From IMG/VR virus record IMGVR_UViG_3300027920_000641: DNA of 64,000 bases. One strand, written 5' to 3'. Positions 3,303 through 18,766 of this stretch are shown one piece after another. Origin of the DNA: a virus. Under the pieces are notes generated by a model, which worked only from the letters and a program-made list of their open reading frames with translations, did no database searches and was not told where the DNA came from. A program made the position numbers and the translations under genes. How positions within the stretch are numbered: the stretch's first letter is position 1; every line of letters begins with the position of its first letter.

Positions 3303-3335
3303 TTTTCCTTTTGTTAACTTTTTATAAACCTCATG

Positions 3336-3782: not shown

Positions 3783-3783
3783 G

Positions 3784-4614: not shown

Positions 4615-4634
4615 AATTCTCCTTTATTATTTTA

Positions 4635-5048
4635 CTACTTTACTACTTCTCTGAAAATAAAAGTTCCCTTAGTATCCTGTTTTTGTCTGCGCCTAGTCCT
4701 AACGGCCGATGAGGTTGCTTCTAAGTTCGGGAAGATTTCCTGCAATTTGCGCCTAGCCCTAGCTACAGTTTCATAACTTGGCAGATCTCCAGAGATTAGA
4801 TCTTCAAGTAAAATCGCTTCTTTATCTCCGAACCAAACCCTCTCTGTCCAGTTGTGCTCGTTCACAATCTTGCCCATTTGTCTGAAGACTTCAGTGAGCA
4901 ATAGTTTGTCTGAGTTCCTGGTTTCAGGCTTATTGATGAGTATATTCTTGATTAAGTCGTATGTTTTCATTTTGCTCCATAAAAATACATGGTAAAGAGT
5001 ATGTAAATTACTGTTGTAATAATAAAAATAAAGACCAAGTTTATCCAT
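4635..5048 (-). CDS. hypothetical protein
   Basis: ORF track 137 aa. Confidence 0.5.
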   Translation of the reverse strand: MDKLGLYFYYYNSNLHTLYHVFLWSKMKTYDLIKNILINKPETRNSDKLLLTEVFRQMGKIVNEHNWTERVWFGDKEAILLEDLISGDLPSYETVARARRKLQEIFPNLEATSSAVRTRRRQKQDTKGTFIFREVVK

Positions 5049-5058
5049 CGATTAAATG

Positions 5059-5265
5059 TCATGCTGTTTTTTCCTTTCTGTCTTCTCGATATTTATCCCA
5101 TCGTTTTTTTGCACTGATCTTCCCCATATTGGAAAAATACTCTCGACCCTTTTCCTTGTTTTTAGCCCCACCAGCACGTCCTAGGGAAGCCATGTATTCC
5201 GATATGATGGGATTTACTGTTGATTTTGTCATATTACTTTCTAAGACTGATCCCCCAAGGGACAC
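5059..5265 (-). CDS. small KGG-motif stress-protein-like peptide
   Basis: GRAGGAKNKEKGREYFSNMGKISAKKRW resembles the KGG-repeat general stress proteins (YciG-like). Confidence 0.4.
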   Translation of the reverse strand: MSLGGSVLESNMTKSTVNPIISEYMASLGRAGGAKNKEKGREYFSNMGKISAKKRWDKYREDRKEKTA

Positions 5266-5458
5266 TCTTATTTCTTTTTTTAACGGCGCTAGCTAACTTT
5301 AGCGCCTTTAGTACGATCTCAGTTCTTTTCCCATTATTTAAGTAGAGATCTTCTACGAAAGCAATGGTTAGTGCGTGGATTAAATCACTATCTTCCCCAA
5401 TAGTTTTTACCTTGATTGTATTGGTATTTTTCTCAATGGAGAAAACAGTTTTGCTCAT
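5234..5458 (-). CDS. hypothetical protein
   Basis: ORF track 74 aa. Confidence 0.45.
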   Translation of the reverse strand: MSKTVFSIEKNTNTIKVKTIGEDSDLIHALTIAFVEDLYLNNGKRTEIVLKALKLASAVKKRNKSVPWGISLRK

Positions 5459-5580
5459 ATAATTTCCTTAATTACCATTTCTAACATTGAGTAAGTGAAA
5501 AACAATGCAAATGCTATTACTAGAATTGTTGCTGATCCAAAGAACAGGATCAAATAGGTTGCTGGGAATATATTCTTCAT
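5455..5580 (-). CDS. small hydrophobic membrane peptide (41 aa)
   Basis: Self-translated MKNIFPATYLILFFGSATILVIAFALFF...; stop overlaps downstream ATG (ATGA); sigma70-like promoter just upstream; coordinates approximate. Confidence 0.3.
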   Translation of the reverse strand: MKNIFPATYLILFFGSATILVIAFALFFTYSMLEMVIKEII

Positions 5581-5618
5581 ATTTTTCTTTCTAATAGTAT
5601 CATATTATGCCATGTTTG

Positions 5619-5795
5619 TCAATGACTCTTTATACACAGGGGGTTCTCTTTATCTTGGTTTATCAACATAGTTTTCATTTTGCAGACAGCAAGTATATCT
5701 CCAGATGGCTCATAAAGTCTCCCAGACAAAAAGAATAGACTGGACGAAGCTATCATGCATAACAAAATTACAATTTTCAAAGTTGTTTTTTTCAT
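5619..5795 (-). CDS. small secreted peptide (58 aa) with signal-peptide-like N-terminus
   Basis: Self-translated MKKTTLKIVILLCMIASSSLFF...; GAGGGG RBS; coordinates approximate. Confidence 0.3.
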   Translation of the reverse strand: MKKTTLKIVILLCMIASSSLFFLSGRLYEPSGDILAVCKMKTMLINQDKENPLCIKSH

Positions 5796-5870
5796 AAGTT
5801 CCCCTCTAGCTCGGGGGATCTTCTCGCTAGTTTTACAACCACCGAGAGATCTCCCCTTTATTGACTAGCA

Positions 5871-6116
5871 TTATTTGCCAGACTCCAATACTGCTTCTAG
5901 TACCACGGCGTACTTATTGCCGTCTTTGTCGAAGATTGTGTCTACCAAGAATGCTTCCTCTACCTTGCACCCAGTTTCTTCGATATTGACTGCTCGATAA
6001 ATCTTGCAAACCTCTCTGTTTGCCGACTCAACTGCTTCCTCTGGGCTATTCGCCGCGACTGAAACCGAGTCCTCTTCCGCTGTTTCTGTTACATACCTTA
6101 CGTCGTAAAATTGCAT
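5871..6116 (-). CDS. hypothetical protein
   Basis: ORF track 81 aa. Confidence 0.5.
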   Translation of the reverse strand: MQFYDVRYVTETAEEDSVSVAANSPEEAVESANREVCKIYRAVNIEETGCKVEEAFLVDTIFDKDGNKYAVVLEAVLESGK

Positions 6117-6316
6117 ATATTTTCTTTCTATTTTTACTAATTACTACTTGACTTTTTTTCTCTAGTCATATAGAGTTATTTTAATCTTTTTTTACATAGC
6201 TTTGTTCCTTAAAATAAGCGCTTAGTAAGAGGGTTCTGGCTATAAGTTTAAACCTGTTATGACTTAGCTCAGTTTCGGTTACCTGCCAAGGAGTGAGTAA
6301 CTGAGTACCAGACTTT

Positions 6317-6775
6317 TTATCTTTCAAACTCTAAGCCTTCTTTTGCAATCACACTAATCCCTCTAGTTTTTGCCCATTTCAGCGCTCCTTGCCACTCTGT
6401 GTCAGTGAAGTCTCCATCGCTAGACACCCTAATTGATGGTATGAAGTTCCCCAAAACTAAGTACACCTTCATCACATATTCGTCATATGGTTTAAACGCA
6501 GTTTTACAACAAGTAAAGTACTCATTGTCTACCGTAAAATACCAACCGCTGTCTTTTGGGTTTGATGAGTACCAGCAGGTTTCGTGTCCATCTTCTCCCT
6601 TACCATTAAACCTGATTTCCTCTTTTGTTACCAGCGGTTTACTTGGGTCGTTATATTCGAGTTGCAGTATTTCCTTTTCCCAACCCTCCTCAATTACTTC
6701 CTTGAGTATCTCCAGTGCTTTATCTGGAATATCCTCTGGTTTCTTAGTGTTGTATAGATAGTGTGTGTAGCCCAT
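6317..6775 (-). CDS. hypothetical protein
   Basis: ORF track 152 aa. Confidence 0.55.
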   Translation of the reverse strand: MGYTHYLYNTKKPEDIPDKALEILKEVIEEGWEKEILQLEYNDPSKPLVTKEEIRFNGKGEDGHETCWYSSNPKDSGWYFTVDNEYFTCCKTAFKPYDEYVMKVYLVLGNFIPSIRVSSDGDFTDTEWQGALKWAKTRGISVIAKEGLEFER

Positions 6776-6784
6776 ATATTCTCC

Positions 6785-7087
6785 TTATTTAATTATTGTT
6801 TTGATACCGACCTCTGTCCAGTGCATGTCCCGCTCTATTCCTAGCCCAAACCGCCCGCGGTACGATTGCAATTCTTCTAGTGCGAATGATCCCCACTCAT
6901 CGTTATGATCTTTGAAGATAGATACATATCCAAAAAAGATTTGATCTTTTGGGTCATATTCGGTTGCATACCAGTCTCCAGCCCCAGTGGGGTTGAAAAA
7001 GTGAGCCACCACAATGGGGTTCTCTTTTCCTTCTTGATTACCGATCTTAGCAAATCTTTCTTCCAAGCCTTTTGTCATTAGTTTCAT
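6785..7087 (-). CDS. hypothetical protein
   Basis: ORF track 100 aa. Confidence 0.5.
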   Translation of the reverse strand: MKLMTKGLEERFAKIGNQEGKENPIVVAHFFNPTGAGDWYATEYDPKDQIFFGYVSIFKDHNDEWGSFALEELQSYRGRFGLGIERDMHWTEVGIKTIIK

Positions 7088-7380
7088 AAGACTCCTATCT
7101 TTTTTAATAGCCCTTGCTCCACAAAAGCTATGTGCCTACTTGGTACTTCTTTGTCAAATATCCTCTTGAAAGCAGATGTTTTAATCACTGCAATTGACCC
7201 AGTATTTTCTTCGATTAATAACACCCCCTTAGTCAAGTACTGTTCCCTACACTCATCGCGTGGTTCGGGTGTAACGGTGTGCATTTCGAAGGTTGGTTTT
7301 AATCTTCGATCCATGAGTAGCGTGCCAGTATCTTTTCTGCAAATCGGGCAAACCGCTAGTGTTACATAAGATTTCTCCAT
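7084..7380 (-). CDS. hypothetical protein
   Basis: ORF track 98 aa; GGGGGGAAGT-ATG RBS; promoter TTGACA-16-TATAGT upstream. Confidence 0.5.
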   Translation of the reverse strand: MEKSYVTLAVCPICRKDTGTLLMDRRLKPTFEMHTVTPEPRDECREQYLTKGVLLIEENTGSIAVIKTSAFKRIFDKEVPSRHIAFVEQGLLKKIGVL

Positions 7381-7400
7381 ACTTCCCCCCTTATTACTAT

Positions 7401-7428
7401 ACTATACTATATTCTCCACAATTGTCAA
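7401..7428 (-). promoter_or_regulatory. sigma70-type promoter (TTGACA-16-TATAGT)
   Basis: Reverse complement reads TTGACAattgtggagaatatagTATAGT; about 14-nt leader to the ATG at 7380. Confidence 0.5.
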
Positions 7429-7453
7429 TATATCTTTCTATATCAAACTATTC

Positions 7454-7624
7454 CTACAACAAATTGATGATGCTGTATTCCTCATTAATGTATTCGATAT
7501 TTGCAACATCTTCTGGGTGTATCTCTGCAAACTTATTTTTTGCATCTTCCAGATCGATTGCTTCTATGACTGCGAGTTCAAAGTCATGTTTATCGGTTTC
7601 CTTAACTCCAAAATAGTAGTTCAT
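7454..7624 (-). CDS. hypothetical small protein (56 aa)
   Basis: Self-translated MNYYFGVKETDKHDFELAV...; GGGGG RBS 5 nt before ATG; ATGA overlap with upstream gene. Confidence 0.4.
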   Translation of the reverse strand: MNYYFGVKETDKHDFELAVIEAIDLEDAKNKFAEIHPEDVANIEYINEEYSIINLL

Positions 7625-7788
7625 AGAACCCCCTTTGCTTCCTCAATTATTTTCATTACTATTGCCTGAGCAACTCCCTGCAAATCACTGGTGGTGTACT
7701 CATCTCGTTTATAAACTAAGTCGAGTATTTCATCTGTGTACTTCAATTCGATCATTACTTTTTTCAGTGCTTTTTCTTCTATTGTCAT
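7621..7788 (-). CDS. hypothetical small protein (55 aa)
   Basis: Self-translated MTIEEKALKKVMIELKY...; GGGGGGAATT-ATG motif. Confidence 0.4.
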   Translation of the reverse strand: MTIEEKALKKVMIELKYTDEILDLVYKRDEYTTSDLQGVAQAIVMKIIEEAKGVL

Positions 7789-7812
7789 AATTCCCCCCTT
7801 GTACTAACTTCT

Positions 7813-7841
7813 ATTATAGCACACTGAGTGTTATATGTCAA
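7813..7841 (-). promoter_or_regulatory. consensus sigma70 promoter (TTGACA-17-TATAAT)
   Basis: Reverse complement TTGACAtataacactcagtgtgcTATAAT; member of a repeated roughly 30-nt promoter family. Confidence 0.65.
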
Positions 7842-7844
7842 TAG

Positions 7845-8054
7845 TTATTTTCCCCCCATCTCGGTCGCTTCTACCAAATGGTTATAAGTACGCTTTTTTT
7901 CAATAGTAAACTCAAACCCGTTTATCATCTGCATAATTGTTGACACTGGTAGGCGGTACTCGTTGCCCTCATCATCAAAAACCCTCAATTGATTATTTGC
8001 GTACATTGTATTCAGTGTTTCAATAACAACTATTTTCTGACCCGCTATTTTCAT
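7845..8054 (-). CDS. hypothetical protein
   Basis: ORF track 69 aa. Confidence 0.45.
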   Translation of the reverse strand: MKIAGQKIVVIETLNTMYANNQLRVFDDEGNEYRLPVSTIMQMINGFEFTIEKKRTYNHLVEATEMGGK

Positions 8055-8056
8055 AA

Positions 8057-8215
8057 TTACTCCTCTTTATACTCCTCATACTCCTCTACTTCTTTTTTGA
8101 ATAGTTCTGGCTTATATGTGCCATTTGCTATATCAACCAGTGTTTCAATCGCATCAACCTCTGGGCTACTTGTACCCAACCATTTTTCTACCATTTCAAA
8201 AGTAACTTTGGTCAT
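8057..8215 (-). CDS. hypothetical small acidic protein (52 aa)
   Basis: Self-translated MTKVTFEMVEKWLG...; GGGGGAATT-ATG motif. Confidence 0.4.
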   Translation of the reverse strand: MTKVTFEMVEKWLGTSSPEVDAIETLVDIANGTYKPELFKKEVEEYEEYKEE

Positions 8216-8224
8216 AATTCCCCC

Positions 8225-8383
8225 TTATTCACTATCTTTATACGCTTCTGGCGAGGTAACTACTTCATGTTCAGTACTATCAACCTCCCCACTCATAACT
8301 AACTCGATTGCTCCTGCTTCATCTTTGGCTTCTACTCGTTCTGCTCTCATCTGGCAATCATAAACAACTGTAAAAAATGGCAT
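8225..8383 (-). CDS. hypothetical small protein (52 aa)
   Basis: Self-translated MPFFTVVYDCQMRAERVEAKDEAG...; AAAGGAAATT-ATG. Confidence 0.35.
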   Translation of the reverse strand: MPFFTVVYDCQMRAERVEAKDEAGAIELVMSGEVDSTEHEVVTSPEAYKDSE

Positions 8384-8397
8384 AATTTCCTTTCTAA

Positions 8398-8556
8398 TTA
8401 ACTATTGGCATTTAATATGTTCAACTCTTTTCTTATTTTTTCAACTAACTCATCTACCTCGTCTCCGTCTAGTGGTTCATTATCATTAAATGATAAGACT
8501 AATTTGTGTATTTTTTCTGCCGATGTCTTTGCGATCCAACTCTTGATATTCTTCAT
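8398..8556 (-). CDS. hypothetical small protein (52 aa)
   Basis: Self-translated MKNIKSWIAKTSAEK...; GGAGGAGGT-ATG RBS. Confidence 0.4.
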   Translation of the reverse strand: MKNIKSWIAKTSAEKIHKLVLSFNDNEPLDGDEVDELVEKIRKELNILNANS

Positions 8557-8702
8557 ACCTCCTCCGTATCGTATATTTCTACCGCGTACAGTCCGTTCTT
8601 GATTGCGAAGTCAACTCTCTTTAGTGCTTCTGCTTCATTTTCCGCTTCTGGGTGTTCATCAAGCGTGATATCGATAAAGTATCTGATCATTTTTTTCTTC
8701 AT
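8553..8702 (-). CDS. hypothetical small protein (49 aa)
   Basis: Self-translated MKKKMIRYFIDITLDEHPEAE...; G6 RBS; ATGA overlap. Confidence 0.35.
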   Translation of the reverse strand: MKKKMIRYFIDITLDEHPEAENEAEALKRVDFAIKNGLYAVEIYDTEEV

Positions 8703-8728
8703 ATTTTCTGCCCCCCTTTATATCTTCT

Positions 8729-8757
8729 ATTATAACATACTGTCTGTTATATGTCAA
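8729..8757 (-). promoter_or_regulatory. consensus sigma70 promoter (TTGACA-17-TATAAT)
   Basis: Reverse complement TTGACAtataacagacagtatgtTATAAT. Confidence 0.65.
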
Positions 8758-8766
8758 GCATCATTT

Positions 8767-8946
8767 CTAAGTAACTTTTTTTGTTTTTTCCCTATCAATT
8801 AATAATTCCGAGTCAACTAGCTTGTAGACTTGCTCCATAATTCCATCGACTGTTTGATCTGCTAACTCGTGCTGTAAAGTCTTAATAAGTCTTGACCTGA
8901 TCACGATGTTTCTAGACAATAGTTTCTGCATTTCTGGCGTGTTCAT
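8767..8946 (-). CDS. hypothetical small protein (59 aa)
   Basis: Internal start MNTPEM of track ORF 8767..9018; GGGAGATT-ATG; ATGA overlap with upstream gene stop. Confidence 0.4.
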   Translation of the reverse strand: MNTPEMQKLLSRNIVIRSRLIKTLQHELADQTVDGIMEQVYKLVDSELLIDREKTKKVT

Positions 8947-9263
8947 AATCTCCCATCTCCCAAGTCCTCCCAGATCTCCGCTAGTAAATCCATATCTGGG
9001 TACTCGGTACACTTGCAAACTACTTTGCCCGTCTGTTGTCTATATCCCCCGTATGGGTATCTGTTCTCTTGCCAGAATGGTACAATCTCGTGGTATTTCC
9101 CCGTATTTAGTACAATCAACCCTCCCCAATCTCCCGCACTACTCATGGTGTCCATGTACTCGACTCTTACAACCGCTTTATACTTTCCAAATATGTCCTT
9201 AGCATCGTACCAACCAAGCCCTCCCTGTTCCCATTTTCTGTCTAGTAGGTGTTTAATTGTCAT
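8943..9263 (-). CDS. hypothetical protein
   Basis: ORF track 106 aa. Confidence 0.5.
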   Translation of the reverse strand: MTIKHLLDRKWEQGGLGWYDAKDIFGKYKAVVRVEYMDTMSSAGDWGGLIVLNTGKYHEIVPFWQENRYPYGGYRQQTGKVVCKCTEYPDMDLLAEIWEDLGDGRL

Positions 9264-9337
9264 AGTCCTCCCGTGCTACTTGATACTATTCGTTCCAATT
9301 TCCAATAACTTTATTTACAGCTCCCATATATTCCCCC

Positions 9338-9514
9338 TTATGCTACTAAGCTTTTTACAATTTCAATTGCGTCTGCATCTTGTTCTAACCATTGTTGGAG
9401 TAGCAATAGCATTTCAAACTTGGCTAGCTTCTTCACTTGTGCTTGTGCATCGCTCCAGTTCCCGTTGACATAGTTATCTATGATTGCTTGCCATTTTTCA
9501 TATCTTGTTGGCAT
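9338..9514 (-). CDS. hypothetical small protein (58 aa)
   Basis: Internal ATG (MPTRYEKW) of the track ORF, preceded by GGGGGAATT-ATG. Confidence 0.45.
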   Translation of the reverse strand: MPTRYEKWQAIIDNYVNGNWSDAQAQVKKLAKFEMLLLLQQWLEQDADAIEIVKSLVA

Positions 9515-9524
9515 AATTCCCCCT

Positions 9525-9701
9525 TTATATTTCAAAATACGTATATCCTAAAAGACCATTTTCTACTTTTTTAAAGTGTTTTTTTAACTCGACAATATAT
9601 TCTTGACTTAATCCTCCTGTACAGATACTTATATTATTTCCACCCGCTCTTTTAATTGAGTTCTTAACATACCTGACTGTTTTTTTAATTCCTAGCTTCA
9701 T
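9525..9701 (-). CDS. hypothetical small basic protein (58 aa)
   Basis: Self-translated MKLGIKKTVRYVKNSIKRAGG...; G8 run upstream of ATG; coordinates approximate. Confidence 0.3.
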   Translation of the reverse strand: MKLGIKKTVRYVKNSIKRAGGNNISICTGGLSQEYIVELKKHFKKVENGLLGYTYFEI

Positions 9702-9713
9702 GCCCCCCCCTTA

Positions 9714-9926
9714 TTACACAATACAATTGTCTGCTACTTTGGTCTTGTTGATTGCTCCCCCTTTGTTTAACCAACCATCTGAGATTAGAGCCTGAGCAGT
9801 TCTCCCGTAACTACCTTGGAGTTCCCAAGCACGTCCACTTTTTACTAAGAATGAAAAAAGCTTGAGTGTCTGGAGGTCTGATAGTTCCCCCGCTTCATAT
9901 GCTATTATTTGATCTAGTAGTGTCAT
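9714..9926 (-). CDS. hypothetical protein (70 aa)
   Basis: Internal start MTLLDQ of the track ORF, preceded by GGGGGGCAAGTT-ATG; the longer form would overlap the upstream gene. Confidence 0.45.
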   Translation of the reverse strand: MTLLDQIIAYEAGELSDLQTLKLFSFLVKSGRAWELQGSYGRTAQALISDGWLNKGGAINKTKVADNCIV

Positions 9927-9951
9927 AACTTGCCCCCCTTTATTACTTATT

Positions 9952-9980
9952 ATTATAACATACCGTGTGCTATATGTCAA
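9952..9980 (-). promoter_or_regulatory. consensus sigma70 promoter (TTGACA-17-TATAAT)
   Basis: Reverse complement TTGACAtatagcacacggtatgtTATAAT. Confidence 0.65.
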
Positions 9981-9987
9981 GTCCAAT

Positions 9988-10638
9988 TTAGCCCGCAAAC
10001 CTGTATTGGAGTGGTACACCTGATTTGATGTATTTCTTAGCTTGTTCCAGATGCTTTTTGTGTTTCTCCTCGATGTCATAATCGACCACCGACTGTGCTT
10101 CTTTTAGGGTATCGTCATACCCGTAATACCCCCAACACGAGTCGACACTTTTCCCCTCTGGATCATTTACCATGTAACCATATACATCGCCACTGATATA
10201 TTGATCGAACGTCTTGACCTCGTTCTCGGCTATTCTCTTAGCATCTGCAATCAGTTTCTTTGTTACCCTCTTGGTGTTCCAATTCTTGCGTATGTCCTCT
10301 TTGGTAACTACAATCCAACCCACTTGCCCACTATCCCATCGATCCGAAAACGGGTAACATCTCATCGTGATCCCGCTATGTTCATAGACAAAAAGTGGTA
10401 AAATAACTGCAATCTCCCCAACCGTCTCAGTGATCCAACCCACGAATGAGTCGTAATCGTCGACATACATGGTGTCCCCGTGTTTATCGCTGTAATAACT
10501 CTCTGGTATGATCGTATCGCCAAGTGTCCAGTTTCTTGACCTGTAATACATTGTTGCCAAGTTATCCCAGTCTCTCGGCGTCATATCGCTAGTATCTTGT
10601 TTAATCTCTATGGTATAACCTCTGTATTCTTCTTGCAT
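9988..10638 (-). CDS. hypothetical protein
   Basis: ORF track 216 aa; GGGGGGAATT-ATG. Confidence 0.55.
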   Translation of the reverse strand: MQEEYRGYTIEIKQDTSDMTPRDWDNLATMYYRSRNWTLGDTIIPESYYSDKHGDTMYVDDYDSFVGWITETVGEIAVILPLFVYEHSGITMRCYPFSDRWDSGQVGWIVVTKEDIRKNWNTKRVTKKLIADAKRIAENEVKTFDQYISGDVYGYMVNDPEGKSVDSCWGYYGYDDTLKEAQSVVDYDIEEKHKKHLEQAKKYIKSGVPLQYRFAG

Positions 10639-10647
10639 AATTCCCCC

Positions 10648-10998
10648 CTATTTAATTTTTACTTGTGAAGACTCAATATACTCAATTTCTTTGATTGCAT
10701 CTTGTAAAGCGTCCTCTTTGTTTGCCCTAGCTATATTTAGTGTGTTTTGCCACAAAAAACTCCCCTTACTATCCGTGCATCTAACTATTGCTTGATACAC
10801 TGGTTTACCTATTCCAATTGCTCTGGTGTGTGGTGTTAGCATGTCCCCCCCCTGCTTGGTGCAGTACTCTACCGCATCAACTATGTTACTAAAATACTTT
10901 GGTATTACTAAATCCAGCCCGTACACGGCGTAAAACTTTTCTGTTCCCTCTACCCCCATGAACAGCTTATAATCTTTGATGAAGTCAATTAGTATCAT
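10648..10998 (-). CDS. hypothetical protein
   Basis: ORF track 116 aa; preceded by the conserved leader element ggtagcaagtag..agggggacatc-ATG. Confidence 0.5.
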   Translation of the reverse strand: MILIDFIKDYKLFMGVEGTEKFYAVYGLDLVIPKYFSNIVDAVEYCTKQGGDMLTPHTRAIGIGKPVYQAIVRCTDSKGSFLWQNTLNIARANKEDALQDAIKEIEYIESSQVKIK

Positions 10999-11014
10999 GA
11001 TGTCCCCCTCTTTA

Positions 11015-11066
11015 CTACTTGCTACCGTGAGCGGGTCATTACAACCCGCCCCCGCTAGTAACTAGC
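11015..11066 (-). promoter_or_regulatory. conserved double-hairpin leader element, copy 1
   Basis: The palindrome gctagtaactagc plus the hairpin gcgggt-N7-acccgc plus a conserved ctacttgctacc leader; a near-identical copy lies at 12709-12758. Confidence 0.45.
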
Positions 11067-11613
11067 CTATTTGGTAGTGTCTAACCGTGAACGGGTTATA
11101 TCCCTCAACCTTGGTACTATTCAGCTTTTCAACATCTAGATTGACTTGATCGAACGTGTTGACGTCTGGATTTTTGATCCCCGCAACTGCTAGCTTAATT
11201 GTCTCATCAAGTATCGGCAAAACTTCATCTGGTTTCGCCCCGCAATAGGTGCAAATTGCCGTTGCTTCAATTCTCATGAATTGATATAACCTACTGTATA
11301 AATACTTGCGTTGCTCGGTTGTGAATAATTCCCAGTTATCGGATATCCAACTACACAACCCGCCCAAGTCCTCGACCTTGTAAAAACTCCTGACTTTAAA
11401 CTTGCAGAACCCATCGGTTTGATCGAGTAACATAATGTCGTGATATGTTCCCGCGTGTGGTTTATTTAATTTCCCCGTTTTTGGATTGATCGATTGAGTA
11501 ACCCCGCGAAAACCCTTGTTGGCTTTAAACTCGACCCAGAAAAACATACTAGTTCGTAATCGCCCGTATGGGTAGTCAGTTACCTCTACTTTTTTTGTAC
11601 TATGCTGTAGCAT
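11062..11613 (-). CDS. hypothetical protein
   Basis: ORF track 183 aa; GGGGGAAATT-ATG. Confidence 0.55.
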   Translation of the reverse strand: MLQHSTKKVEVTDYPYGRLRTSMFFWVEFKANKGFRGVTQSINPKTGKLNKPHAGTYHDIMLLDQTDGFCKFKVRSFYKVEDLGGLCSWISDNWELFTTEQRKYLYSRLYQFMRIEATAICTYCGAKPDEVLPILDETIKLAVAGIKNPDVNTFDQVNLDVEKLNSTKVEGYNPFTVRHYQIG

Positions 11614-11660
11614 AATTTCCCCCTTGCTATTTTATTACTATTCTTGACTAATTATCTCTA

Positions 11661-11689
11661 ATTCTAGCATACCGAGTGTTATAAGTCAA
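11661..11689 (-). promoter_or_regulatory. sigma70-type promoter (TTGACT-17-TAGAAT)
   Basis: Reverse complement TTGACTtataacactcggtatgcTAGAAT, the same family as 7813/8729/9952. Confidence 0.5.
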
Positions 11690-11708
11690 TAGGTATTTCT
11701 ATATCAAA

Positions 11709-12191
11709 CTATCTCATTTCAAAAATGATTTCTACATCACACAACCCACCGCAACCCAAATTGTCCCGCGTTTTTCTTGACAAATCCGCCACCCTACCAT
11801 GGCGTGCAAATCCGCCTGTATCAGTTACTATCGCCGTCGTGGTTGCCCCCGTTTCCGTGTTTTTGATAGTAACCTGCTTGTTGAGTAGCTTGTACTTGCG
11901 TACCGTCTCGGGTACAAGTGCAATTGTAGCCTTGTTGTCATCTAGTTTTTCCCCGTTCGCCATGATCAACCCATCATTGCAACCCAAACAGCCACCAGTC
12001 CAGTAGTAGGACGCTTGACCCCTGACAGTCAATGGTGCAATGGTAGGCGTCGGCGTAGGTGTAGCCGTTGGCGTTGGCGTAACCTCTACGGTCTCAGCTT
12101 GTGCCACTTGTGCCATTGGTTCGCGTTCCCGTGCAACCTGCAGACCACCAAGGCACAACCCCACCCCAACCAGTACAATTTCTATTTTCAT
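11709..12191 (-). CDS. secreted 3D-domain (MltA/YabE/Rpf-type) protein with TPTP linker
   Basis: Signal peptide MKIEIVLVGVGLCLGGLQVA, (TP)n linker, C-terminal KATIALVPETV...TDTGGFARHGRVADLS matching the 3D-domain pattern. Confidence 0.5.
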   Translation of the reverse strand: MKIEIVLVGVGLCLGGLQVAREREPMAQVAQAETVEVTPTPTATPTPTPTIAPLTVRGQASYYWTGGCLGCNDGLIMANGEKLDDNKATIALVPETVRKYKLLNKQVTIKNTETGATTTAIVTDTGGFARHGRVADLSRKTRDNLGCGGLCDVEIIFEMR

Positions 12192-12265
12192 ACATTCTTT
12201 GCTACTTGCTCGAGTAGTTTTGTGGCTTTTTTAACTTGCATAAGTTCCCCCCTTTATACTTGATA

Positions 12266-12466
12266 CTAGATTGATACATTTAACCCAAACCGCCCCGCCG
12301 TTACTATCTGGACGCCGTCATACCCGTTATCGCTTGCGTACTGTTTCCAGTCTGCTAGCGTCCCGACAGGTGCAAACCCGCCCGCCCCCGCCAATTGATA
12401 CTCTCGATCAACTTCTGGCGTACTATCTTTGCTATAGCTTGCCCGCTTGATGTATAGCGTGGTCAT
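12266..12466 (-). CDS. hypothetical protein (66 aa)
   Basis: Internal start MTTLYIK of the track ORF, preceded by GGGGGAATT-ATG. Confidence 0.4.
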   Translation of the reverse strand: MTTLYIKRASYSKDSTPEVDREYQLAGAGGFAPVGTLADWKQYASDNGYDGVQIVTAGRFGLNVSI

Positions 12467-12498
12467 AATTCCCCCTTGATACTTTATACTATAGGTCG

Positions 12499-12693
12499 TT
12501 ACTTGCCTACTAGATCCCAATTATGAGTTACACCCAGAGATTGCCAATATGCGATACTCTCACACTCGTATATCTGTTTCTTGAGCGTGCATATATCGCG
12601 GTTATTCGCCAACCACGTATTACGTTGATTGATTGGATCAAACCCGCCAAGCTTGCATAGTTCTGCAACCGTTAGCCGTGTATAGTGTCTCAT
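12499..12693 (-). CDS. hypothetical protein
   Basis: ORF track 64 aa; preceded by the conserved leader element copy 2. Confidence 0.45.
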   Translation of the reverse strand: MRHYTRLTVAELCKLGGFDPINQRNTWLANNRDICTLKKQIYECESIAYWQSLGVTHNWDLVGK

Positions 12694-12708
12694 GATGTCC
12701 CCCTTCTG

Positions 12709-12758
12709 CTACTTGCTACCATAAGCGGGTACGGATACCCGCCTAGCTAGTAACTAGC
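12709..12758 (-). promoter_or_regulatory. conserved double-hairpin leader element, copy 2
   Basis: ctacttgctacc + gcgggta-cgga-tacccgc hairpin + gctagtaactagc palindrome. Confidence 0.45.
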
Positions 12759-13119
12759 GTTCTATAAAGTGCATTTTACCGTCTACTTCGAGCGTAATAG
12801 CTTCTTGTCCCCACTCTCGAGCCTTTGCAAGTGTGAAGTTCAATACATTCTCGGCGTGCTTCTCTAGATCCTCGGTGGTCATGTTAACCGTAACTTTGAT
12901 GATGTTTTCAGTTACAATATCCCCCGCGTTACTCTTGTAATATCCCAAGCTTCTCTGGCTTGAGTTCGCCCCGCCTACTAAACCCGTGAAAAATAATGAT
13001 ACCTCGGACGCTCTAGCGTTGTGCTGGTCTCTGGTTATCTTGGTTCGTACCTCTTGTGTGCTAGGCACTTGAAAAGTGATACTGTGATCTAGTGTGAACA
13101 TGTTGTCAAATACTGTCAT
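12754..13119 (-). CDS. hypothetical protein
   Basis: ORF track 121 aa. Confidence 0.5.
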   Translation of the reverse strand: MTVFDNMFTLDHSITFQVPSTQEVRTKITRDQHNARASEVSLFFTGLVGGANSSQRSLGYYKSNAGDIVTENIIKVTVNMTTEDLEKHAENVLNFTLAKAREWGQEAITLEVDGKMHFIER

Positions 13120-13129
13120 ATAGTCCTCT

Positions 13130-13321
13130 CTATTGGTTTATACTTTGATACAGTTCTATATCGATCTTCTCTAGTTCCCCGAGTACCTCTGGAGAAAAAC
13201 TGTCAATCTCTTCTCTGGCTTGATCTGGATCGAAGAAAAACTCGGTTGTCTCCTCGAGTCTCTCGACTTCAGCCCGTAGGTTTTCAGATCTGGTGTGATC
13301 TGGTCGGTTGTGTTCTGTCAT
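13130..13321 (-). CDS. hypothetical acidic protein
   Basis: Track ORF 13130..13369; likely start at the internal MTEHNRP, preceded by GGGGGGACAGC-ATG. Confidence 0.45.
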   Translation of the reverse strand: MTEHNRPDHTRSENLRAEVERLEETTEFFFDPDQAREEIDSFSPEVLGELEKIDIELYQSINQ

Positions 13322-13432
13322 GCTGTCCCCCCTCTTGTAATTATTACGTAAGCCGTTGTAGTGGCTCATTTTAGGCTTTTTACTTGTTTGATATCTTATA
13401 CTGCTAGTTTTAAATTGTAAGCCGTTCTGGTG

Positions 13433-13486
13433 CTATCTAGTAGCTATCTAGTACTTGTCTAGTGTTATCTAGTACTTTGCTAGTGG
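13433..13486. repeat. iteron-like array: 5 direct repeats YTRTCTAGTRS at 10-11-bp phasing
   Basis: ctatctagtag / ctatctagtac / ttgtctagtg / ttatctagtac / tttgctagtgg in tandem; a further ctgctagtt copy at about 13401. Confidence 0.6.
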
Positions 13487-13770
13487 CTTAGATGTACACC
13501 AGTTCCCGCCTATCTGGGTTGTCTGGGTTTTTTTGTGAATGTGCGTGTCTGCTGTCTATTATGGGGATAACAAGCAGATTGTAAACTAGATCTTACTGTA
13601 TCAAACTGTATCATTTGTAGTCAGTTTTCAATTACTTATGCTATTCAGTCGTGCAATTGATAATTATTAAGCCGTTATAGATACGCACTCGAGGTGGATT
13701 GGATCGTATAAGATATATTATGCGACGTAGTGTGCATAGTACTACATACGCGACATGGGTATATATTACT

Positions 13771-13964
13771 TGCGTGCGTGCGTGCATGCCCCTGCTACAG
13801 GGGGGAGGGGGGGTACTACCTCGAGCGTCCAGAGGAAACTATATCTATCTATATCAGAATATATCACCCCCCGCACAGGGGGAAGGGGGTAAAGCCCAAG
13901 CTTATTGTATAAGTCCTGGACGGGATATGTGTCACATCTGGATATGGGGGGGCACCCCCCCATG
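13771..13964. promoter_or_regulatory. GC-rich structured island: (TGCG)3 tract plus three C-run/G-run hairpins with flanking G-runs
   Basis: tgcgtgcgtgcgtgc; CCCCTGctaCAGGGGGgaGGGGGGG; CCCCCCgcacaGGGGGaaGGGGG; GGGGGGGcaCCCCCCC; predicted ORFs in this region are probably spurious. Confidence 0.55.
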
Positions 13965-14014
13965 GTACAAAAAGCCTAAATATTATTGAACTCAAAAAAT
14001 TTTTTGAAAAATTT

Positions 14015-15016
14015 CTACAATTTCAGGTCAGAACCATCATAGGGCCTGTTGCAGTTGCACTCGGCGCAAATGTATCTGAGGTTAGATTGAGCATGTGCTC
14101 CTCCCGCTGCAAGGGGAAGAATATGATCGAGGTGTTTTCCATCTGGGTAATGAGAGTTATCAGCCATTAGTTTTCCACAAACTGGACAGTTAATGGTGTT
14201 TTGTTTTAAATCAATTAACCATTGTGAACTAACTCTCTCTACACCATTCTTTCTCTTTAGAGCTCTTCTCTTACCCTCTTTATTTCTTGAATCAGCACTT
14301 CCCTCTGGGGAGGAATAATAACACTTCTTGCAATATCCATGCCCTTTGTGTGGATATCTTTGGCTGTGACAATTACGACAGTTTTGATAAGACTCACTCC
14401 ACCTTCTAAGCACACATTCATGGGAACAATAGTGAGTTCTTTTTGATGGACATACCAAATAATTTGTTCCGCATGTCCAACAAGTTCTGCTTTCTTTAAT
14501 TGTATTAGCAAGTTTAAATTTTTTAGCGTAAAAAAGACCAACACATCTTCTAGAACAAAACCTACCTTCACCATCGCGAGGATTCTTTTCTTTAAAAAAT
14601 TGTGTTCCGCATACTTCGCAGTGACCTATCTCTCGTTTTTTGTGACACATCTTACACAGACCATTGCCAACATGTTTTCTTTTAGTAGTTCCGCACCTAA
14701 CGCATTGAGGGTATTCCCTAGACCAGGTAAGAAGTTTTTTGTAGGTATAGGGAGAAGATGGACTTTTCCGCAAAGCATGATAGTTTTTCATTTGACAGGA
14801 ACGCGAACAATATTTCCCCGCCCCATTACGTCGCTGAGAAGGACAGTTAACATACGCGATGGGAACATACTCCTTTTTGCAAAACTGGCAGATTCTAGAA
14901 AGAACTGGCTTTATTCTACTTTTACTAGAACAACTGCGAGAACAATAGAGTCCTTTAGATGACCCTTTGGGTAGAAATAGCTCGTGACAGAATAAACACT
15001 CGGCAGGCTGGCGCAC
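14015..15016 (-). CDS. Cys-rich multi-zinc-ribbon HNH endonuclease
   Basis: At least 6 CxxC...(F/Y)CSRxC ribbons followed by the C-terminal HLDHILPLAAGGAHAQSNLRYICAECNCNR HNH motif. Confidence 0.7.
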   Translation of the reverse strand: MRQPAECLFCHELFLPKGSSKGLYCSRSCSSKSRIKPVLSRICQFCKKEYVPIAYVNCPSQRRNGAGKYCSRSCQMKNYHALRKSPSSPYTYKKLLTWSREYPQCVRCGTTKRKHVGNGLCKMCHKKREIGHCEVCGTQFFKEKNPRDGEGRFCSRRCVGLFYAKKFKLANTIKESRTCWTCGTNYLVCPSKRTHYCSHECVLRRWSESYQNCRNCHSQRYPHKGHGYCKKCYYSSPEGSADSRNKEGKRRALKRKNGVERVSSQWLIDLKQNTINCPVCGKLMADNSHYPDGKHLDHILPLAAGGAHAQSNLRYICAECNCNRPYDGSDLKL

Positions 15017-15851: not shown

Positions 15852-16231
15852 AGACTGCTGACCTTAAGAATGGTCTTGACAAATCTTCGTTACTTGAGTA
15901 ATATATAGGTGTCTTAGTTCTATTTGGTTTACAAGAAAACACTCAAACTCTGGGTGTTTTTTTGTTACTAAGCGCTTATTCTGAGTATTGACTTCATGTA
16001 GTAAAGATGATATACTGTTGTCATCAAAAGCACAGTTAATAAATTGAGTATTTACTCGTGTTCTTGTCGCAAGCCACCTTGCTAGTGGTCTATGTCAAAA
16101 CAGAGTTGCCTCGAGTGAGAACCAAAGGAGGACAAGAGTGGTGAATAATCTCACGAACTGCAGTTTGCTACCATATAGACTGATCTATCTAGTCATGGTG
16201 GCACGAGTAAGTACTTAATAAGAAAGGGAAT

Positions 16232-16658: not shown

Positions 16659-16886
16659 ATGCCAACAGATACATTTCGAAAAGCGTACACGGAGTTAACC
16701 GATTTACAGAAAGAAAACGTGGCTGTTATTAAGGAAGCCGCTGTTATCTTGGAGGAGGAATTCAACCATGCCGTTCCAACTGATGAAAGAAGTGAGCGAA
16801 GCCGCTGCATGGCCATTGCTAGAACTAATTTAGAACAAGCTATTATGTGGGCAATCAAGGGTGTTACTACTCCAAGTGAAAAATAA
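16659..16886 (+). CDS. hypothetical protein
   Basis: ORF track 75 aa; AAAGGAGCTT-ATG. Confidence 0.5.
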   Translation: MPTDTFRKAYTELTDLQKENVAVIKEAAVILEEEFNHAVPTDERSERSRCMAIARTNLEQAIMWAIKGVTTPSEK

Positions 16887-17046
16887 GCTCATTAAACTAC
16901 TAGGTGGGTATACTGAGGAAGAGGTAGAAAAAATGATCTTTTCCGCTCTTTGTAAATACAAGTTAATCAAAATGCTCAAGAAAAACAACGGAACTGATAA
17001 ATTACCAGACTACGATACTTTTACTGATGGAATGAGGGAGAGATGA
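16861..17046 (+). CDS. hypothetical small protein
   Basis: ORF track 61 aa; possible start at the internal Met (16933) after GAGGAAGAGG. Confidence 0.35.
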   Translation: MLLLQVKNKLIKLLGGYTEEEVEKMIFSALCKYKLIKMLKKNNGTDKLPDYDTFTDGMRER

Positions 17047-18260
17047 AAACATTTTGTTTTGGAACACCAGACGAGGGAGCTTTAACCCAAGCACGTAATT
17101 GCGAAGCGGAAGCAGAAAAGATAATTCTAATGGCTGATAACCATAAAGGCTATGGTATGCCAGTTGGAGGCGTGGCTGTCTACAAAAATAAGGTAAGTCC
17201 AGCAGGTGTGGGATTTGATATATCTTGTGGTAATAAAGCGGTCAAGCTCGATATTGATTATGATTCTATTAAAGACAGATTACCAGAATTAGCAGGTCAG
17301 ATATGGGAAAATCTCTCATTTGGCATTGGTAGAAAGAATGAAACCCCAGTATCACACGACTTATTTAACGACCCATCGTGGCAAGAGGTTGACTTTTTGA
17401 GAGAAAGACCTGAGTTAAAATTAAAAGCAGAACAACAGTTAGGTACAATCGGTTCAGGCAATCATTATGTAGATGTGTTTAGGGATGAAAACAATCAAGT
17501 TTGGGTTGGTGTTCATTTTGGTAGTAGGGGATTCGGACACACTATTGCTTCTCATTTTATGCAGTTAGCTGGTGACAATCCAAATATTATGGATGAGACA
17601 CCCCACACACTGTCTCTCGATACAAAAGAGGGGCAAGACTATTTTAGGGCTATGGAGTTAGCAGGTAGATACGCTTATGCTGGGCGTGATTGGGTATGTG
17701 AAACAGTTGCTAATATCTTGGGTGGAAAGATAGTTGATGAGGTTCACAATCATCACAACTACGCTTGGAAAGAAACACATGGTGGAATTGAGTATGTGGT
17801 TGTGAGAAAAGGTGCTACTCCTGCATTTCCTGGTCAAAAGGGATTTGTTGGTTCAACTATGGGTGGTGTTTCAGTAATTATTGAGGGAGTGGATAGTGAG
17901 AGATCAAAAGAAGCATTTTATTCTGCTATGCACGGGGCTGGTAGGGTTATGAGTCGAACTCAGGCTGCTGGCAAGTGGAAAAAATCAGTTGAAACTAGAA
18001 CTAAGCCAGATGGAACTGAATATCAGTTTAAGAAAAGAGTGAGAACTCAAGGGCTGGTCGATTGGGATAAAGTAAAAGCTGAATTGATTGGAAAAGGGAT
18101 TATTCTCAAAGGTGGTGGGGTAGATGAAGCCCCAGAAGCATATAAGAATCTTGAGGAAGTCTTAGAGTTACATAAAGGAACTATCAACATTTTACACAGA
18201 TTAACACCACTAATTGTGTGTATGGCTGGTAGTGACGAGTTTGACCCGTACCAAGACTAG
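17043..18260 (+). CDS. rtcB: RtcB RNA 3'-phosphate/2',3'-cyclic-phosphate ligase
   Basis: GTIGSGNHYVDVFRDENNQVWVGVHFGSRGFG and SAMHGAGRVMSRT are near-identical to E. coli RtcB motifs (GTLGTGNHFIEI...HSGSRGIG; HGAGRVMSRT); 405 aa versus 408 aa. Confidence 0.9.
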   Translation: MKTFCFGTPDEGALTQARNCEAEAEKIILMADNHKGYGMPVGGVAVYKNKVSPAGVGFDISCGNKAVKLDIDYDSIKDRLPELAGQIWENLSFGIGRKNETPVSHDLFNDPSWQEVDFLRERPELKLKAEQQLGTIGSGNHYVDVFRDENNQVWVGVHFGSRGFGHTIASHFMQLAGDNPNIMDETPHTLSLDTKEGQDYFRAMELAGRYAYAGRDWVCETVANILGGKIVDEVHNHHNYAWKETHGGIEYVVVRKGATPAFPGQKGFVGSTMGGVSVIIEGVDSERSKEAFYSAMHGAGRVMSRTQAAGKWKKSVETRTKPDGTEYQFKKRVRTQGLVDWDKVKAELIGKGIILKGGGVDEAPEAYKNLEEVLELHKGTINILHRLTPLIVCMAGSDEFDPYQD

Positions 18261-18292: not shown

Positions 18293-18766
18293 ATGGTTAA
18301 AGGATTCAAACATAGTGAGGAAACAAAACAGTTAATTTCAAAAGCTGCAAAAGGAAAAGGGAAGGGCGGCTTTAATGTTAAAATTAATTGTCCTAGTTGC
18401 CAATTAATAATGTCCCCCGCCAATTTAGCAAAACATCTTGGTAGGTGCGAGAAGACAAGGGGGCTCTTTCTTATGGGTAAAGAATTAAGTGTCAAAGAAC
18501 AAAAAATACTCAGAATGATTTTGAAGCCAACAGGATGGACTTTAGAAAATTATATATATCAACATAACAAACAAAATGATAGGTGTTATATTTGTGGAGA
18601 ATTGACCAAGAAAAGACTCTATGCAGACCATTGCCACAAAGAAAACAAACCTAGAAAACTACTTTGCGTCTTGTGCAATACAGGACTTGGGGCTTTTAGA
18701 GATGACAAACAAATACTATTAAAGGCTGTATCATATTTAACGGAGTTTGACCCGTATAAAGATTAA
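18293..18766 (+). CDS. Endonuclease VII-like (T4 gp49 family) HNH nuclease
   Basis: N-terminal CPSC..C zinc ribbon; DHCHKENKPRKLLCVLCNTGLG matches the DHxH..RGLLC..CN..G Endo VII signature. Confidence 0.7.
   Translation: MVKGFKHSEETKQLISKAAKGKGKGGFNVKINCPSCQLIMSPANLAKHLGRCEKTRGLFLMGKELSVKEQKILRMILKPTGWTLENYIYQHNKQNDRCYICGELTKKRLYADHCHKENKPRKLLCVLCNTGLGAFRDDKQILLKAVSYLTEFDPYKD

What the first reader, a model, noticed from the sequence alone, without database searches (positions are those of the whole stretch)
11015..12758. Two copies of a conserved roughly 50-nt double-hairpin leader element upstream of unrelated early genes
Copy 1 is at 11015-11066 and copy 2 at 12709-12758. On the transcribed (minus) strand both read palindrome GCTAGTTACTAGC, then hairpin GCGGGT-loop-ACCCGC, then GGTAGCAAGTAG..AGGGGGACATC-ATG. 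The proteins they precede (10648..10998 and 12499..12693) are unrelated. The element therefore looks like a portable regulatory cassette: a phage-specific middle promoter, an RNase III processing site, or a transcriptional attenuator lacking a U-tract. The CTAGTA core is the same as in the iteron array, which hints at a common DNA-binding protein.
Basis: seen in the sequence. Interest (0 to 1): 0.5.

Follow-up and report, generated by a model that had tools for sequence, protein, structure and literature searches.

The report
Conserved hairpin between phage early genes
Two near-identical ~70-nt spacers between unrelated early genes of an uncultivated phage each fold into one long two-tier RNA hairpin that starts at the upstream gene's stop codon; the hairpin belongs to a small family shared with other phages and most likely punctuates the early mRNA by processing or stabilising it, rather than acting as a promoter or DNA-binding site.

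Summary
Window 11066-10996 and 12758-12691 (minus strand) share the blocks GCTAGTTACTAGC, GCGGGT-loop-ACCCGC, GGTAGCAAGTAG and AGGGGGACATCATG. The flanking proteins are unrelated.

The "double hairpin" reading is incomplete. GGTAGCAAGTAG is the imperfect complement of the palindrome, so each copy forms one 51-53-nt hairpin (-26 to -28 kcal/mol): a lower stem with conserved mismatches, an internal loop, and a GC-rich upper stem.

I found further members. A 94-99% identical strain has a variant copy and a third copy that this window has lost by deletion. Members also occur in four other phage contigs, three of which share no detectable protein with the window. All lie between same-direction genes in sense orientation. 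The upstream stop codon TAG is usually embedded in the 5' arm, and a ribosome-binding site usually follows 3-6 nt after the hairpin.

Eight distinct sequences give 93% pairing, with double changes in 12 of 17 pairs. Variants break the DNA palindrome but keep the pairing. There is no U-tract, no promoter and no Rfam match. The link to the iteron array is not supported.

Best reading: a cis-acting intercistronic RNA hairpin that works in processing or stability, like the T7 RNase III sites. The mechanism is inferred, not shown.

The parts
10996..11066 (-). Element copy 1, whole cassette: from the last codon and stop of the 183-aa gene to the ATG of the 116-aa gene
   Evidence: covariance model hit of 87.4 bits
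11014..11066 (-). Copy 1 long two-tier hairpin (53 nt): 5' arm 11066-11054, upper stem-loop about 11052-11028, 3' arm 11026-11014
   Evidence: MFE -27.7 kcal/mol, z -3.7; the sense strand folds 7 kcal/mol better than the antisense
11062..11064 (-). TAG stop codon of the 183-aa gene (11062-11613), embedded in the 5' arm
11003..11010 (-). Shine-Dalgarno sequence GAGGGGGA of the 116-aa gene, starting 3 nt after the last paired base of the hairpin
12691..12758 (-). Element copy 2, whole cassette: from the last codon and stop of the 121-aa gene to the ATG of the 64-aa gene
   Evidence: covariance model hit of 90.7 bits
12708..12758 (-). Copy 2 long two-tier hairpin (51 nt): 5' arm 12758-12746, upper stem-loop about 12745-12722, 3' arm 12720-12708
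   Evidence: MFE -26.2 kcal/mol, z -2.8; the orthologue in L003 folds at -30.1
12754..12756 (-). TAG stop codon of the 121-aa gene (12754-13119), embedded in the 5' arm
12698..12705 (-). Shine-Dalgarno sequence AAGGGGGA of the 64-aa gene
12229..12238 (-). Junction (CAAGTTAAAA microhomology) of a 357-nt deletion. In strain L003 the deleted segment holds two small genes separated by a third copy of the element
11661..11689 (-). Sigma-70-like promoter (TTGACT-17-TAGAAT, with TG) that presumably drives the operon 183 aa - hairpin 1 - 116 aa - 216 aa
   Evidence: no promoter-like site lies between the hairpin and the downstream ATG
13558..13585 (-). Sigma-70-like promoter (TTTACA-16-CATAAT) that presumably drives the operon 63 aa - 121 aa - hairpin 2 - 64 aa - 66 aa - 160 aa

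Best explanation
Each copy is a cis-acting structured RNA in the sense early transcript. It is an intercistronic hairpin of about 50 nt with two tiers. The lower stem is formed by (G)CUAGUUACUAG(C) pairing with (G)GUAGCAAGUAG and carries conserved mismatches. An internal loop separates it from a GC-rich upper stem of 7-10 bp. The hairpin begins at the stop codon of the upstream gene and ends a few nucleotides before the Shine-Dalgarno sequence of the next gene.

RNA polymerase reads through it, because the downstream genes have no promoter of their own. The folded hairpin then acts after transcription as mRNA punctuation. It could be a double-strand-specific cleavage site, of the RNase III type seen between phage T7 early genes. 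It could also be a barrier to 3'-exonucleases. Either way the cistrons on its two sides would acquire different stability and expression.

Shown here: the sequence family, the structure with covariation, the strand specificity and the fixed position. Inferred: that the hairpin is cleaved or protects RNA ends, and which enzyme acts on it.
For: - Folding. Both copies fold into the long hairpin, and no shuffle does as well.
- Differences between the copies. They avoid the arms: 0 of 37 arm positions against 15 of 21 elsewhere, p=2e-9.
- Closely related strain (L003, 94-99% identical over the shared region). Its copy 2 has A>G and C>U in the 5' arm. These turn an A x C mismatch into G-C and keep a U.G pair, giving -30.1 kcal/mol, but they break the DNA palindrome.
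- More members. There is a third copy in L003. Further members are in L004, L019 with two copies, L025 (detected independently by model R2 at E=4e-4) and L051. Their upper stems have completely different sequences.
- Covariation. In 8 distinct sequences 93.4% of cells pair and 12 of 17 pairs change on both sides; 0 of 500 shuffles reach this, and slid controls pair at 23-59%.
- Orthologous retention. L019a and L051 keep the element while their flanking proteins are only about 56% identical, and the lower stem shows two double compensatory changes.
- Strand. The sense strand folds better than the antisense in 8 of 8 members. All members lie in sense orientation between co-directional genes.
- Fit to RNase III substrates. 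The total helix length is about two turns with an internal loop, which is the reactivity pattern described for RNase III substrates that leave protective 3' hairpins (PMC1540722).
- Not a standard terminator. The same genome uses canonical U-tract terminators elsewhere, and these hairpins have no U-tract.
Against: - No RNA-end data exist, and the host is unknown.
- No phage-encoded RNase III was seen among the proteins scanned.
- The arms are conserved as sequence, not only as pairing. TAG-N4-TAG and a G x G mismatch are invariant, and an A x C mismatch recurs. A plain RNase III or exonuclease-barrier role does not require this.
- The covariation alignment was fitted to the model's structure, which leans towards that structure.
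- The family is small: 9 sequences of which 8 are distinct, or 10 with L025. Some of them are orthologues.
Confidence: 0.5

Rival explanations
1. Transcriptional attenuator. The stable hairpin makes RNA polymerase pause or partly terminate without a U-tract, perhaps with a factor. Genes distal to it would then be transcribed less than the promoter-proximal gene.
For: The hairpin is GC-rich, stable and intergenic, and it sits one or two genes after a promoter. The stem-loops of T4-type PeSL cassettes act as strong terminators in reporter assays (PMC2839356).
Against: No member has a U-tract. The phage's clear terminators do have U-tracts. Downstream genes depend on read-through because they have no promoter of their own. 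This reading does not explain why the lower-stem sequence and its mismatches are conserved.
Confidence: 0.2
2. Translation-gated switch or insulator. The stop codon lies in the 5' arm, so a ribosome terminating there melts the lower stem only and frees the 3' arm beside the next Shine-Dalgarno sequence. The element would then couple or insulate translation of the two cistrons, or expose the full duplex to nucleases only when upstream translation stops.
For: The upstream stop is the TAG at the same arm position in 7 of 9 members: with L003 copy 1 identical to window copy 1. TAG is only about 30% of stops in this genome. The 5' arm extends about 10 nt past the stop, roughly the reach of a terminating ribosome (my own knowledge of ribosome footprints and helicase position, not tested here). 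The hairpin ends 3-6 nt before the Shine-Dalgarno sequence in most members. The 5' arm can also form a small hairpin of its own in every member.
Against: The Shine-Dalgarno sequence is unpaired in all predicted folds. L025 has no clear upstream ORF. L019b has no recognisable Shine-Dalgarno sequence, and L051's lies about 18 nt after the hairpin. The embedded stop may simply reflect genome compaction.
Confidence: 0.15
3. Selfish or recombinational DNA element. It would be a miniature palindromic element (REP/MITE-like) or a promoter-less relative of PeSL cassettes. It would spread or persist because its conserved arms are substrates for a transposase or for homologous recombination that shuffles gene modules, with no direct regulatory role.
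For: The conserved termini with a variable interior are found between unrelated genes and in phages that share no protein with the window. Copies within one genome resemble each other more than copies in other phages do. At the position of L019b the relative L051 has an extra gene instead. The early arm is mosaic between strains.
Against: - There are only 2-3 copies per genome.
- No target-site duplication is seen.
- The element has a strict sense orientation and a fixed register to the stop codon and Shine-Dalgarno sequence.
- The interior changes by compensatory substitution rather than decaying.
- The orthologue is retained at about 56% flanking protein identity.
- The one indel seen in this window's lineage has its junction in coding microhomology, not at an element.
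- No convincing copy was found in 185,579 bacterial genomes.
Confidence: 0.12
4. Double-stranded DNA site. The palindrome GCTAGTTACTAGC would be an operator for a dimeric phage protein, possibly the one that binds the TACTAGATAGC iterons, or part of a phage-specific promoter.
For: It is a perfect 13-bp palindrome in both window copies. It shares TACTAG/CTAGTA with the iteron array at 13432-13485.
Against: The palindrome is broken in L003 copy 2, L019b and L051, while pairing with the 3' arm is kept or improved. CTAGTA is not enriched. There are no promoter hexamers. G.U pairs make the fold strand-specific.
Confidence: 0.04

Closest known systems
RNase III processing sites between early genes of coliphage T7 (R0.3-R1.3; the R1.1 substrate)
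   Same: They are intercistronic in early polycistronic mRNA. They are hairpins of about 50-60 nt with a lower stem, an internal loop and an upper stem totalling about two helical turns. Several paralogous copies occur per genome with shared sequence. They have no terminator function. Cleavage leaves a protective 3' hairpin (PMC1540722; the rest is from my own knowledge of T7).
   Different: There is no sequence or Rfam relationship. Cleavage is untested and the host is unknown. Here the upstream stop codon is built into the 5' arm and the arms are conserved across otherwise unrelated phages.
PeSL cassettes (promoter-early stem-loops) of T4-type phages
   Same: They are repeated cassettes of about 60-70 nt. 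Each fills the gap from the stop codon of one small early ORF to the Shine-Dalgarno sequence and start of the next, and each contains a stable stem-loop. They occur in plastic regions rich in ORFans (PMC2839356; PMC4122927).
   Different: PeSLs are defined by a consensus sigma-70 promoter, and this element has none. In this window promoter cassettes and hairpin cassettes occupy separate gaps. A role in shuffling is not shown.
REP/BIME and other small extragenic palindromes (e.g. Correia elements)
   Same: They are short imperfect palindromes just downstream of genes. They are transcribed and are known to stabilise upstream mRNA or to be RNase III targets. REPs close to a stop codon can affect translation of the upstream gene (my own knowledge, not verified here).
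   Different: Those elements occur in tens to hundreds of copies in bacterial chromosomes and are tied to RAYT or transposase activity. Here there are 2-3 copies per phage and none in the bacterial genomes scanned. The upper stem covaries instead of being copied.
Intrinsic (Rho-independent) terminators
   Same: A GC-rich stem-loop at the end of a gene.
   Different: There is no U-tract in any member, whereas the same genome has canonical U-tract terminators. Downstream genes need read-through.

Membership tests
T7-type RNase III processing site | Located between cistrons of a polycistronic (early) transcript, in sense orientation | tested here: met
   the same holds in L003, L004, L019 and L051
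T7-type RNase III processing site | About two helical turns of double-stranded RNA, often interrupted by an internal loop | tested here: met
   Predicted hairpin of 51-53 nt with a lower stem, internal loop and upper stem, supported by covariation. Criterion taken from PMC1540722
T7-type RNase III processing site | Site-specific cleavage by the host RNase III | not testable with these tools
   No RNA-end data; host unknown
PeSL cassette (T4-type phages) | Strong sigma-70-like early promoter within the cassette | tested here: not met
   No promoter-like site in 11066-10996 or 12758-12691; manual inspection
PeSL cassette (T4-type phages) | Stable stem-loop between the upstream stop codon and the downstream Shine-Dalgarno sequence and start | tested here: met
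PeSL cassette (T4-type phages) | Indels and replacements between related phages have their junctions in the cassettes | tested here: inconclusive
   The deletion that removed copy 3 has its junction in coding microhomology. L019b versus the extra gene in L051 is suggestive only
Intrinsic terminator | GC-rich hairpin followed directly by a U-tract | tested here: not met
   The tails are UAAAGAGG, CAGAAGGG and similar. The terminator scan does not list either hairpin on the transcribed strand. Canonical terminators exist elsewhere in the genome
REP/MITE-like mobile palindrome | Many dispersed near-identical copies; target-site duplication or an associated transposase | tested here: not met
   2 copies in 64 kb. 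No flanking duplication is visible. No convincing copy in the bacterial genome collection. A transposase was not searched for exhaustively
Palindromic DNA operator | Dyad symmetry conserved among homologous sites | tested here: not met
   GCTAGTTGTTAGC, TTAGTTTTTAGC and TTAGTCGCTAGC lose the dyad but keep pairing with the 3' arm
Any curated RNA family (Rfam 15) | Score at or above the family gathering threshold | tested here: not met
   0 matches over the whole window. The best sub-threshold hit scored 20 bits, E=1.3
Processive antitermination RNA (lambda nut, HK022 put) | boxA/boxB or the two-stem put architecture downstream of early promoters, with terminators to override | tested here: inconclusive
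   Position after early promoters fits. There is no Rfam match, three copies lie within 2 kb of one operon in L003, and no downstream terminators were identified

The most novel reading that the evidence does not exclude
The invariant arm features are TAG-N4-TAG in the 5' arm, GUA in the 3' arm, a G x G mismatch that never varies and a recurrent A x C mismatch. These could be the recognition code of a dedicated sequence-specific RNA-binding protein or endoribonuclease, encoded by the phage or the host. The embedded stop codon would then make access to the lower stem depend on whether a ribosome is terminating there. That would be a portable, translation-gated mRNA punctuation cassette exchanged horizontally among otherwise unrelated phages, a promoter-less counterpart of PeSLs.
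Probability: 0.15. Interest if true: 0.7.

Novelty: new variant of a known kind. Interest (0 to 1): 0.45.

Why it matters
Early regions of uncultivated phages are mostly ORFans with no known regulation. This element is a structured RNA motif supported by covariation and absent from Rfam. It gives a concrete handle on how such phages set the relative expression of neighbouring early genes.

Its fixed register is unusual: the stop codon sits inside the 5' arm and a ribosome-binding site follows just after the 3' arm. That makes a clean, testable model for interplay between translation termination, RNA folding and RNA decay.

Its presence in phages that share no detectable proteins also makes it a marker for exchange of regulatory cassettes, or for a common host factor.

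Tried and rejected
- Close relatives in public phage collections. Megablast of the region and tblastn of the portal against INPHARED gave nothing. The capsid protein is only about 30% identical to podovirus capsids.
- Relatives in IMG/VR. Protein-seeded locus searches with the 183-aa and 121-aa proteins found nothing. Three exact-pattern scans that required window-like blocks also found nothing.
- Metagenome scan.
- Bacterial genome scans. The first found 0. The second found 23 hits, none convincing: the cyanobacterial hits are heptamer-repeat regions, and L049 lies inside a 365-aa ORF.
- L001 is 100% identical to the window and adds nothing.
- Candidate extra copies were rejected. Window 20230-20306 (21.6 bits) does not fold (z +1.2), and L016 is not stable. 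The hairpins at 3740-3786 and 5813-5856 are analogous in position but are not family members by the model.
- Stop-codon readthrough was considered and rejected. The frame stays open only in copy 1; copy 2 and the L003 variant have in-frame stops or a shifted frame (read).
- A promoter reading was rejected after inspecting both strands by hand.
- A link between the element and the 183-aa protein was rejected. Homologues occur without the element nearby in L005-L012, and members occur without that protein.
- A literature search for the motif found nothing relevant.
- No function could be assigned to any flanking protein with Pfam, PHROGs, NCBIfam or PDB.
Full report
CONTEXT. The window is a phage-like genome with no close relative in the public phage collection. 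Its capsid protein is only about 30% identical to podovirus capsids. Genes on 1-15000 run on the minus strand and are small and mostly of unknown function. Structural genes (portal, capsid) run on the plus strand. The minus arm has several consensus sigma-70 promoters with an extended -10 at 9980, 8757, 7841, 7428 and 11689. It also has a very uniform ribosome-binding site, AAGGGGGGAATTATG.

THE OBSERVATION. Read on the minus strand:
- Copy 1 (11066..10996) is GCTAGTTACTAGC-GGGG-GCGGGT-TGTAATG-ACCCGC-TCAC-GGTAGCAAGTAG-TAAAGA-GGGGGACATC-ATG.
- Copy 2 (12758..12691) is GCTAGTTACTAGC-TAG-GCGGGT-ATCCGT-ACCCGC-TTAT-GGTAGCAAGTAG-CAGAA-GGGGGACATC-ATG.

The 13-mer and the 12-mer occur exactly only at these two places in 64 kb. 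The proteins on either side are unrelated. The differences between the copies are strongly non-random: 0 of 37 positions in the stem arms differ, against 15 of 21 in junctions, loop and spacer (p=2e-9). In both copies the TAG stop codon of the upstream gene is bases 3-5 of the first block.

STRUCTURE. Folding shows instead that GGTAGCAAGTAG is the imperfect complement of the palindrome. Each copy forms one hairpin of 51-53 nt at -27.7 and -26.2 kcal/mol, with z-scores of -3.7 and -2.8, and no shuffle folds as well. The hairpin has three parts:
- a lower stem with G x G, A x C and G x G mismatches;
- a small internal loop;
- a GC-rich upper stem of 7-10 bp.

The two-small-hairpin alternative is about 8 kcal/mol weaker.

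RELATIVES. Homologues of the adjacent 183-aa protein led to L003, a strain 94-99% identical over the shared region.
- Copy 1 is identical in L003.
- Copy 2 carries A>G and C>U in the 5' arm (GCTAGTTGTTAGC). These changes break the DNA palindrome, turn the A x C mismatch into G-C and keep a U.G pair. The hairpin is then stronger, at -30.1 kcal/mol.
- L003 also has a third copy between two small genes, with a covarying upper stem (GCGGTA/TACCGC) and a changed 3' arm. The window has lost that segment through a 357-nt deletion between CAAGTTAAAA microhomologies, with the junction at 12229-12238.

A covariance model built from these four sequences found a member in L004 (43.9 bits, E=5e-9). L004 shares only the 183-aa gene with the window. 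Its element lies between two other genes, has an inverted upper stem (GCCCGC/GCGGGC) and again has the upstream TAG stop at the same arm position.

A degenerate pattern scan of IMG/VR found members in L019 and L025. The model then found a second copy in L019, in the very next intergenic gap. Neither locus shares a detectable protein with the window.

L051 is a relative of L019 whose flanking protein is about 56% identical. It keeps the first element at the orthologous site, with two double compensatory changes in the lower stem (U-A to C-G, and C-G to U-A). At the second site it carries an extra gene instead of the element.

COVARIATION. On the model-fitted alignment of nine sequences (eight distinct), 93.4% of cells pair. 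Twelve of 17 pairs change on both sides. No shuffle out of 500 reaches any of the measures, and slid controls pair at only 23-59%. This alignment leans towards the model's structure. Against that, L025 was not in the training set and was still detected by the second model at E=4e-4.

The sense strand folds better than the antisense in 8 of 8 members. Every member lies in sense orientation between co-directional genes. The upstream stop is the embedded TAG in 7 of 9 members, although TAG is only about 30% of stops in this genome.

WHAT IT IS NOT.
- It is not a canonical terminator. No member has a U-tract, while the same genome has textbook U-tract terminators at about 15925-15962 and 54237-54268.
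- It is not a promoter. No hexamer pair is present, and the conserved blocks are accounted for by pairing.
- It is not a DNA operator shared with the iterons. The array at 13432-13485 (TACTAGATAGC repeats) shares only a 6-mer that is not enriched, and natural variants lose the dyad symmetry.
- It is not a known RNA family.
- It is not a host repeat. Two scans of 185,579 bacterial genomes gave no convincing member.

MOST LIKELY FUNCTION. The hairpins sit inside operons. One runs promoter 11689, 183-aa gene, hairpin 1, 116-aa gene, 216-aa gene. The other runs promoter 13585, 63-aa gene, 121-aa gene, hairpin 2, 64-aa gene and onward. Transcription must therefore pass through them.

Two helical turns of duplex interrupted by an internal loop is the anatomy of RNase III substrates. 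Such substrates are cut on one strand and leave a protective 3' hairpin (PMC1540722). The early-gene RNase III sites of phage T7 are the closest functional analogue (my own knowledge).

I therefore favour a post-transcriptional punctuation role. Cleavage, an exonuclease barrier, or both would uncouple the stability and expression of the cistrons on either side. This step is inferred, not shown.

Two other stable intercistronic hairpins without U-tracts lie on the same arm, at 3740-3786 and 5813-5856. They suggest that the phage uses this device more widely with other sequences.

WHAT REMAINS ODD. The arms are conserved as sequence, including mismatches that never get repaired, across phages with no other detectable similarity. 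The stop codon is also built into the 5' arm, so a terminating ribosome should open the lower stem but not the upper one. These features keep three readings alive:
- a sequence-specific RNA-binding factor;
- a translation-gated switch;
- horizontal spread as a portable cassette, comparable to T4-type PeSLs (PMC2839356; PMC4122927) but without their defining promoter.

VERDICT. The feature is real and its position and sequence were correctly described. The structural reading is corrected from two hairpins to one two-tier hairpin. The promoter and DNA-protein interpretations are rejected. The RNA-processing or attenuator interpretation is retained, with processing or stability preferred. It is a new, small family of a known kind of element and is of moderate interest.

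Noticed in passing
window 6215, 15969, 31354, 40413, 45462, 54274 (10-mers): The palindrome TAAGCGCTTA occurs 6 times (0.02 expected). It always follows an A/T-rich run and lies 3-25 nt before a start codon. Twice it comes directly after a canonical U-tract terminator. It is a candidate phage-specific promoter or regulator site for the plus-strand genes.
   Followed up: partly
window 7795-7842, 8711-8758, 9934-9981, 11643-11690; L003 7001-8420 and 4746-5469: A repeated cassette of about 48 nt carries a consensus sigma-70 promoter and a ribosome-binding site. Strain L003 has 1.4 kb of extra genes exactly where the window has the 7786-7845 promoter cassette, and 0.7 kb extra near window 9313. 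This suggests PeSL-like shuffling at promoter repeats.
   Followed up: partly
window 12191-12241 (minus strand): A 16-codon ORF is the scar of a 357-nt deletion relative to L003. The deletion fused the start of a 55-aa gene to the end of a 59-aa gene at the microhomology CAAGTTAAAA.
   Followed up: yes
window 13370-14015: A 650-nt non-coding stretch contains TACTAGATAGC iterons (13432-13485), a G7/C7 hairpin near 13950-13965, long G and C runs, and a short run of CACG repeats. It is a candidate origin of replication or non-coding RNA.
   Followed up: no
window 3740-3786 and 5813-5856 (minus strand): Two more stable intercistronic hairpins (-27 to -28 kcal/mol) lie between a stop codon and the next ribosome-binding site and have no U-tract. 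Both contain CTAG/ACTAG in their stems but are not family members by the covariance models. The 5813-5856 hairpin is identical in L003.
   Followed up: partly
window 626-1150 (minus strand): The 15-nt tandem DNA repeat at 726-977 encodes a pentapeptide-repeat protein (Pfam E=3e-24). It is not an iteron array.
   Followed up: yes
window about 16659-16886 (plus strand; L001 876-1103): A 75-aa gene has a precomputed Pfam hit to Acb2_Tad1_hairpin, so it is a possible anti-defence (cyclic-nucleotide sponge) gene.
   Followed up: no
window 14015-15016 (-), 17043-18260 (+), 18293-18766 (+): An HNH endonuclease, an RtcB RNA ligase and an endonuclease VII/NUMOD3 protein cluster around the divergent early/late junction.
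   Followed up: no
window 49535-54157 and 60404-62002: Long Ser/Pro/Gln-rich coding repeats with 12/18/54-nt periodicity lie in a 1540-aa ORF, and the same repeat type recurs in a 532-aa ORF. Separately, 56962-57286 and 59092-59416 are paralogous stretches at the starts of two neighbouring ORFs.
   Followed up: no
L021/L022/L026 and L015 (IMG/VR contigs): Other phage contigs carry tandem or nested arrays built from the same AGTTACTAG word, for example GTAGTTACTAGTCAGTAAGTTACTAGTCAGTAAGTTACTAG. These differ from the hairpin family and are unexplained.
   Followed up: no
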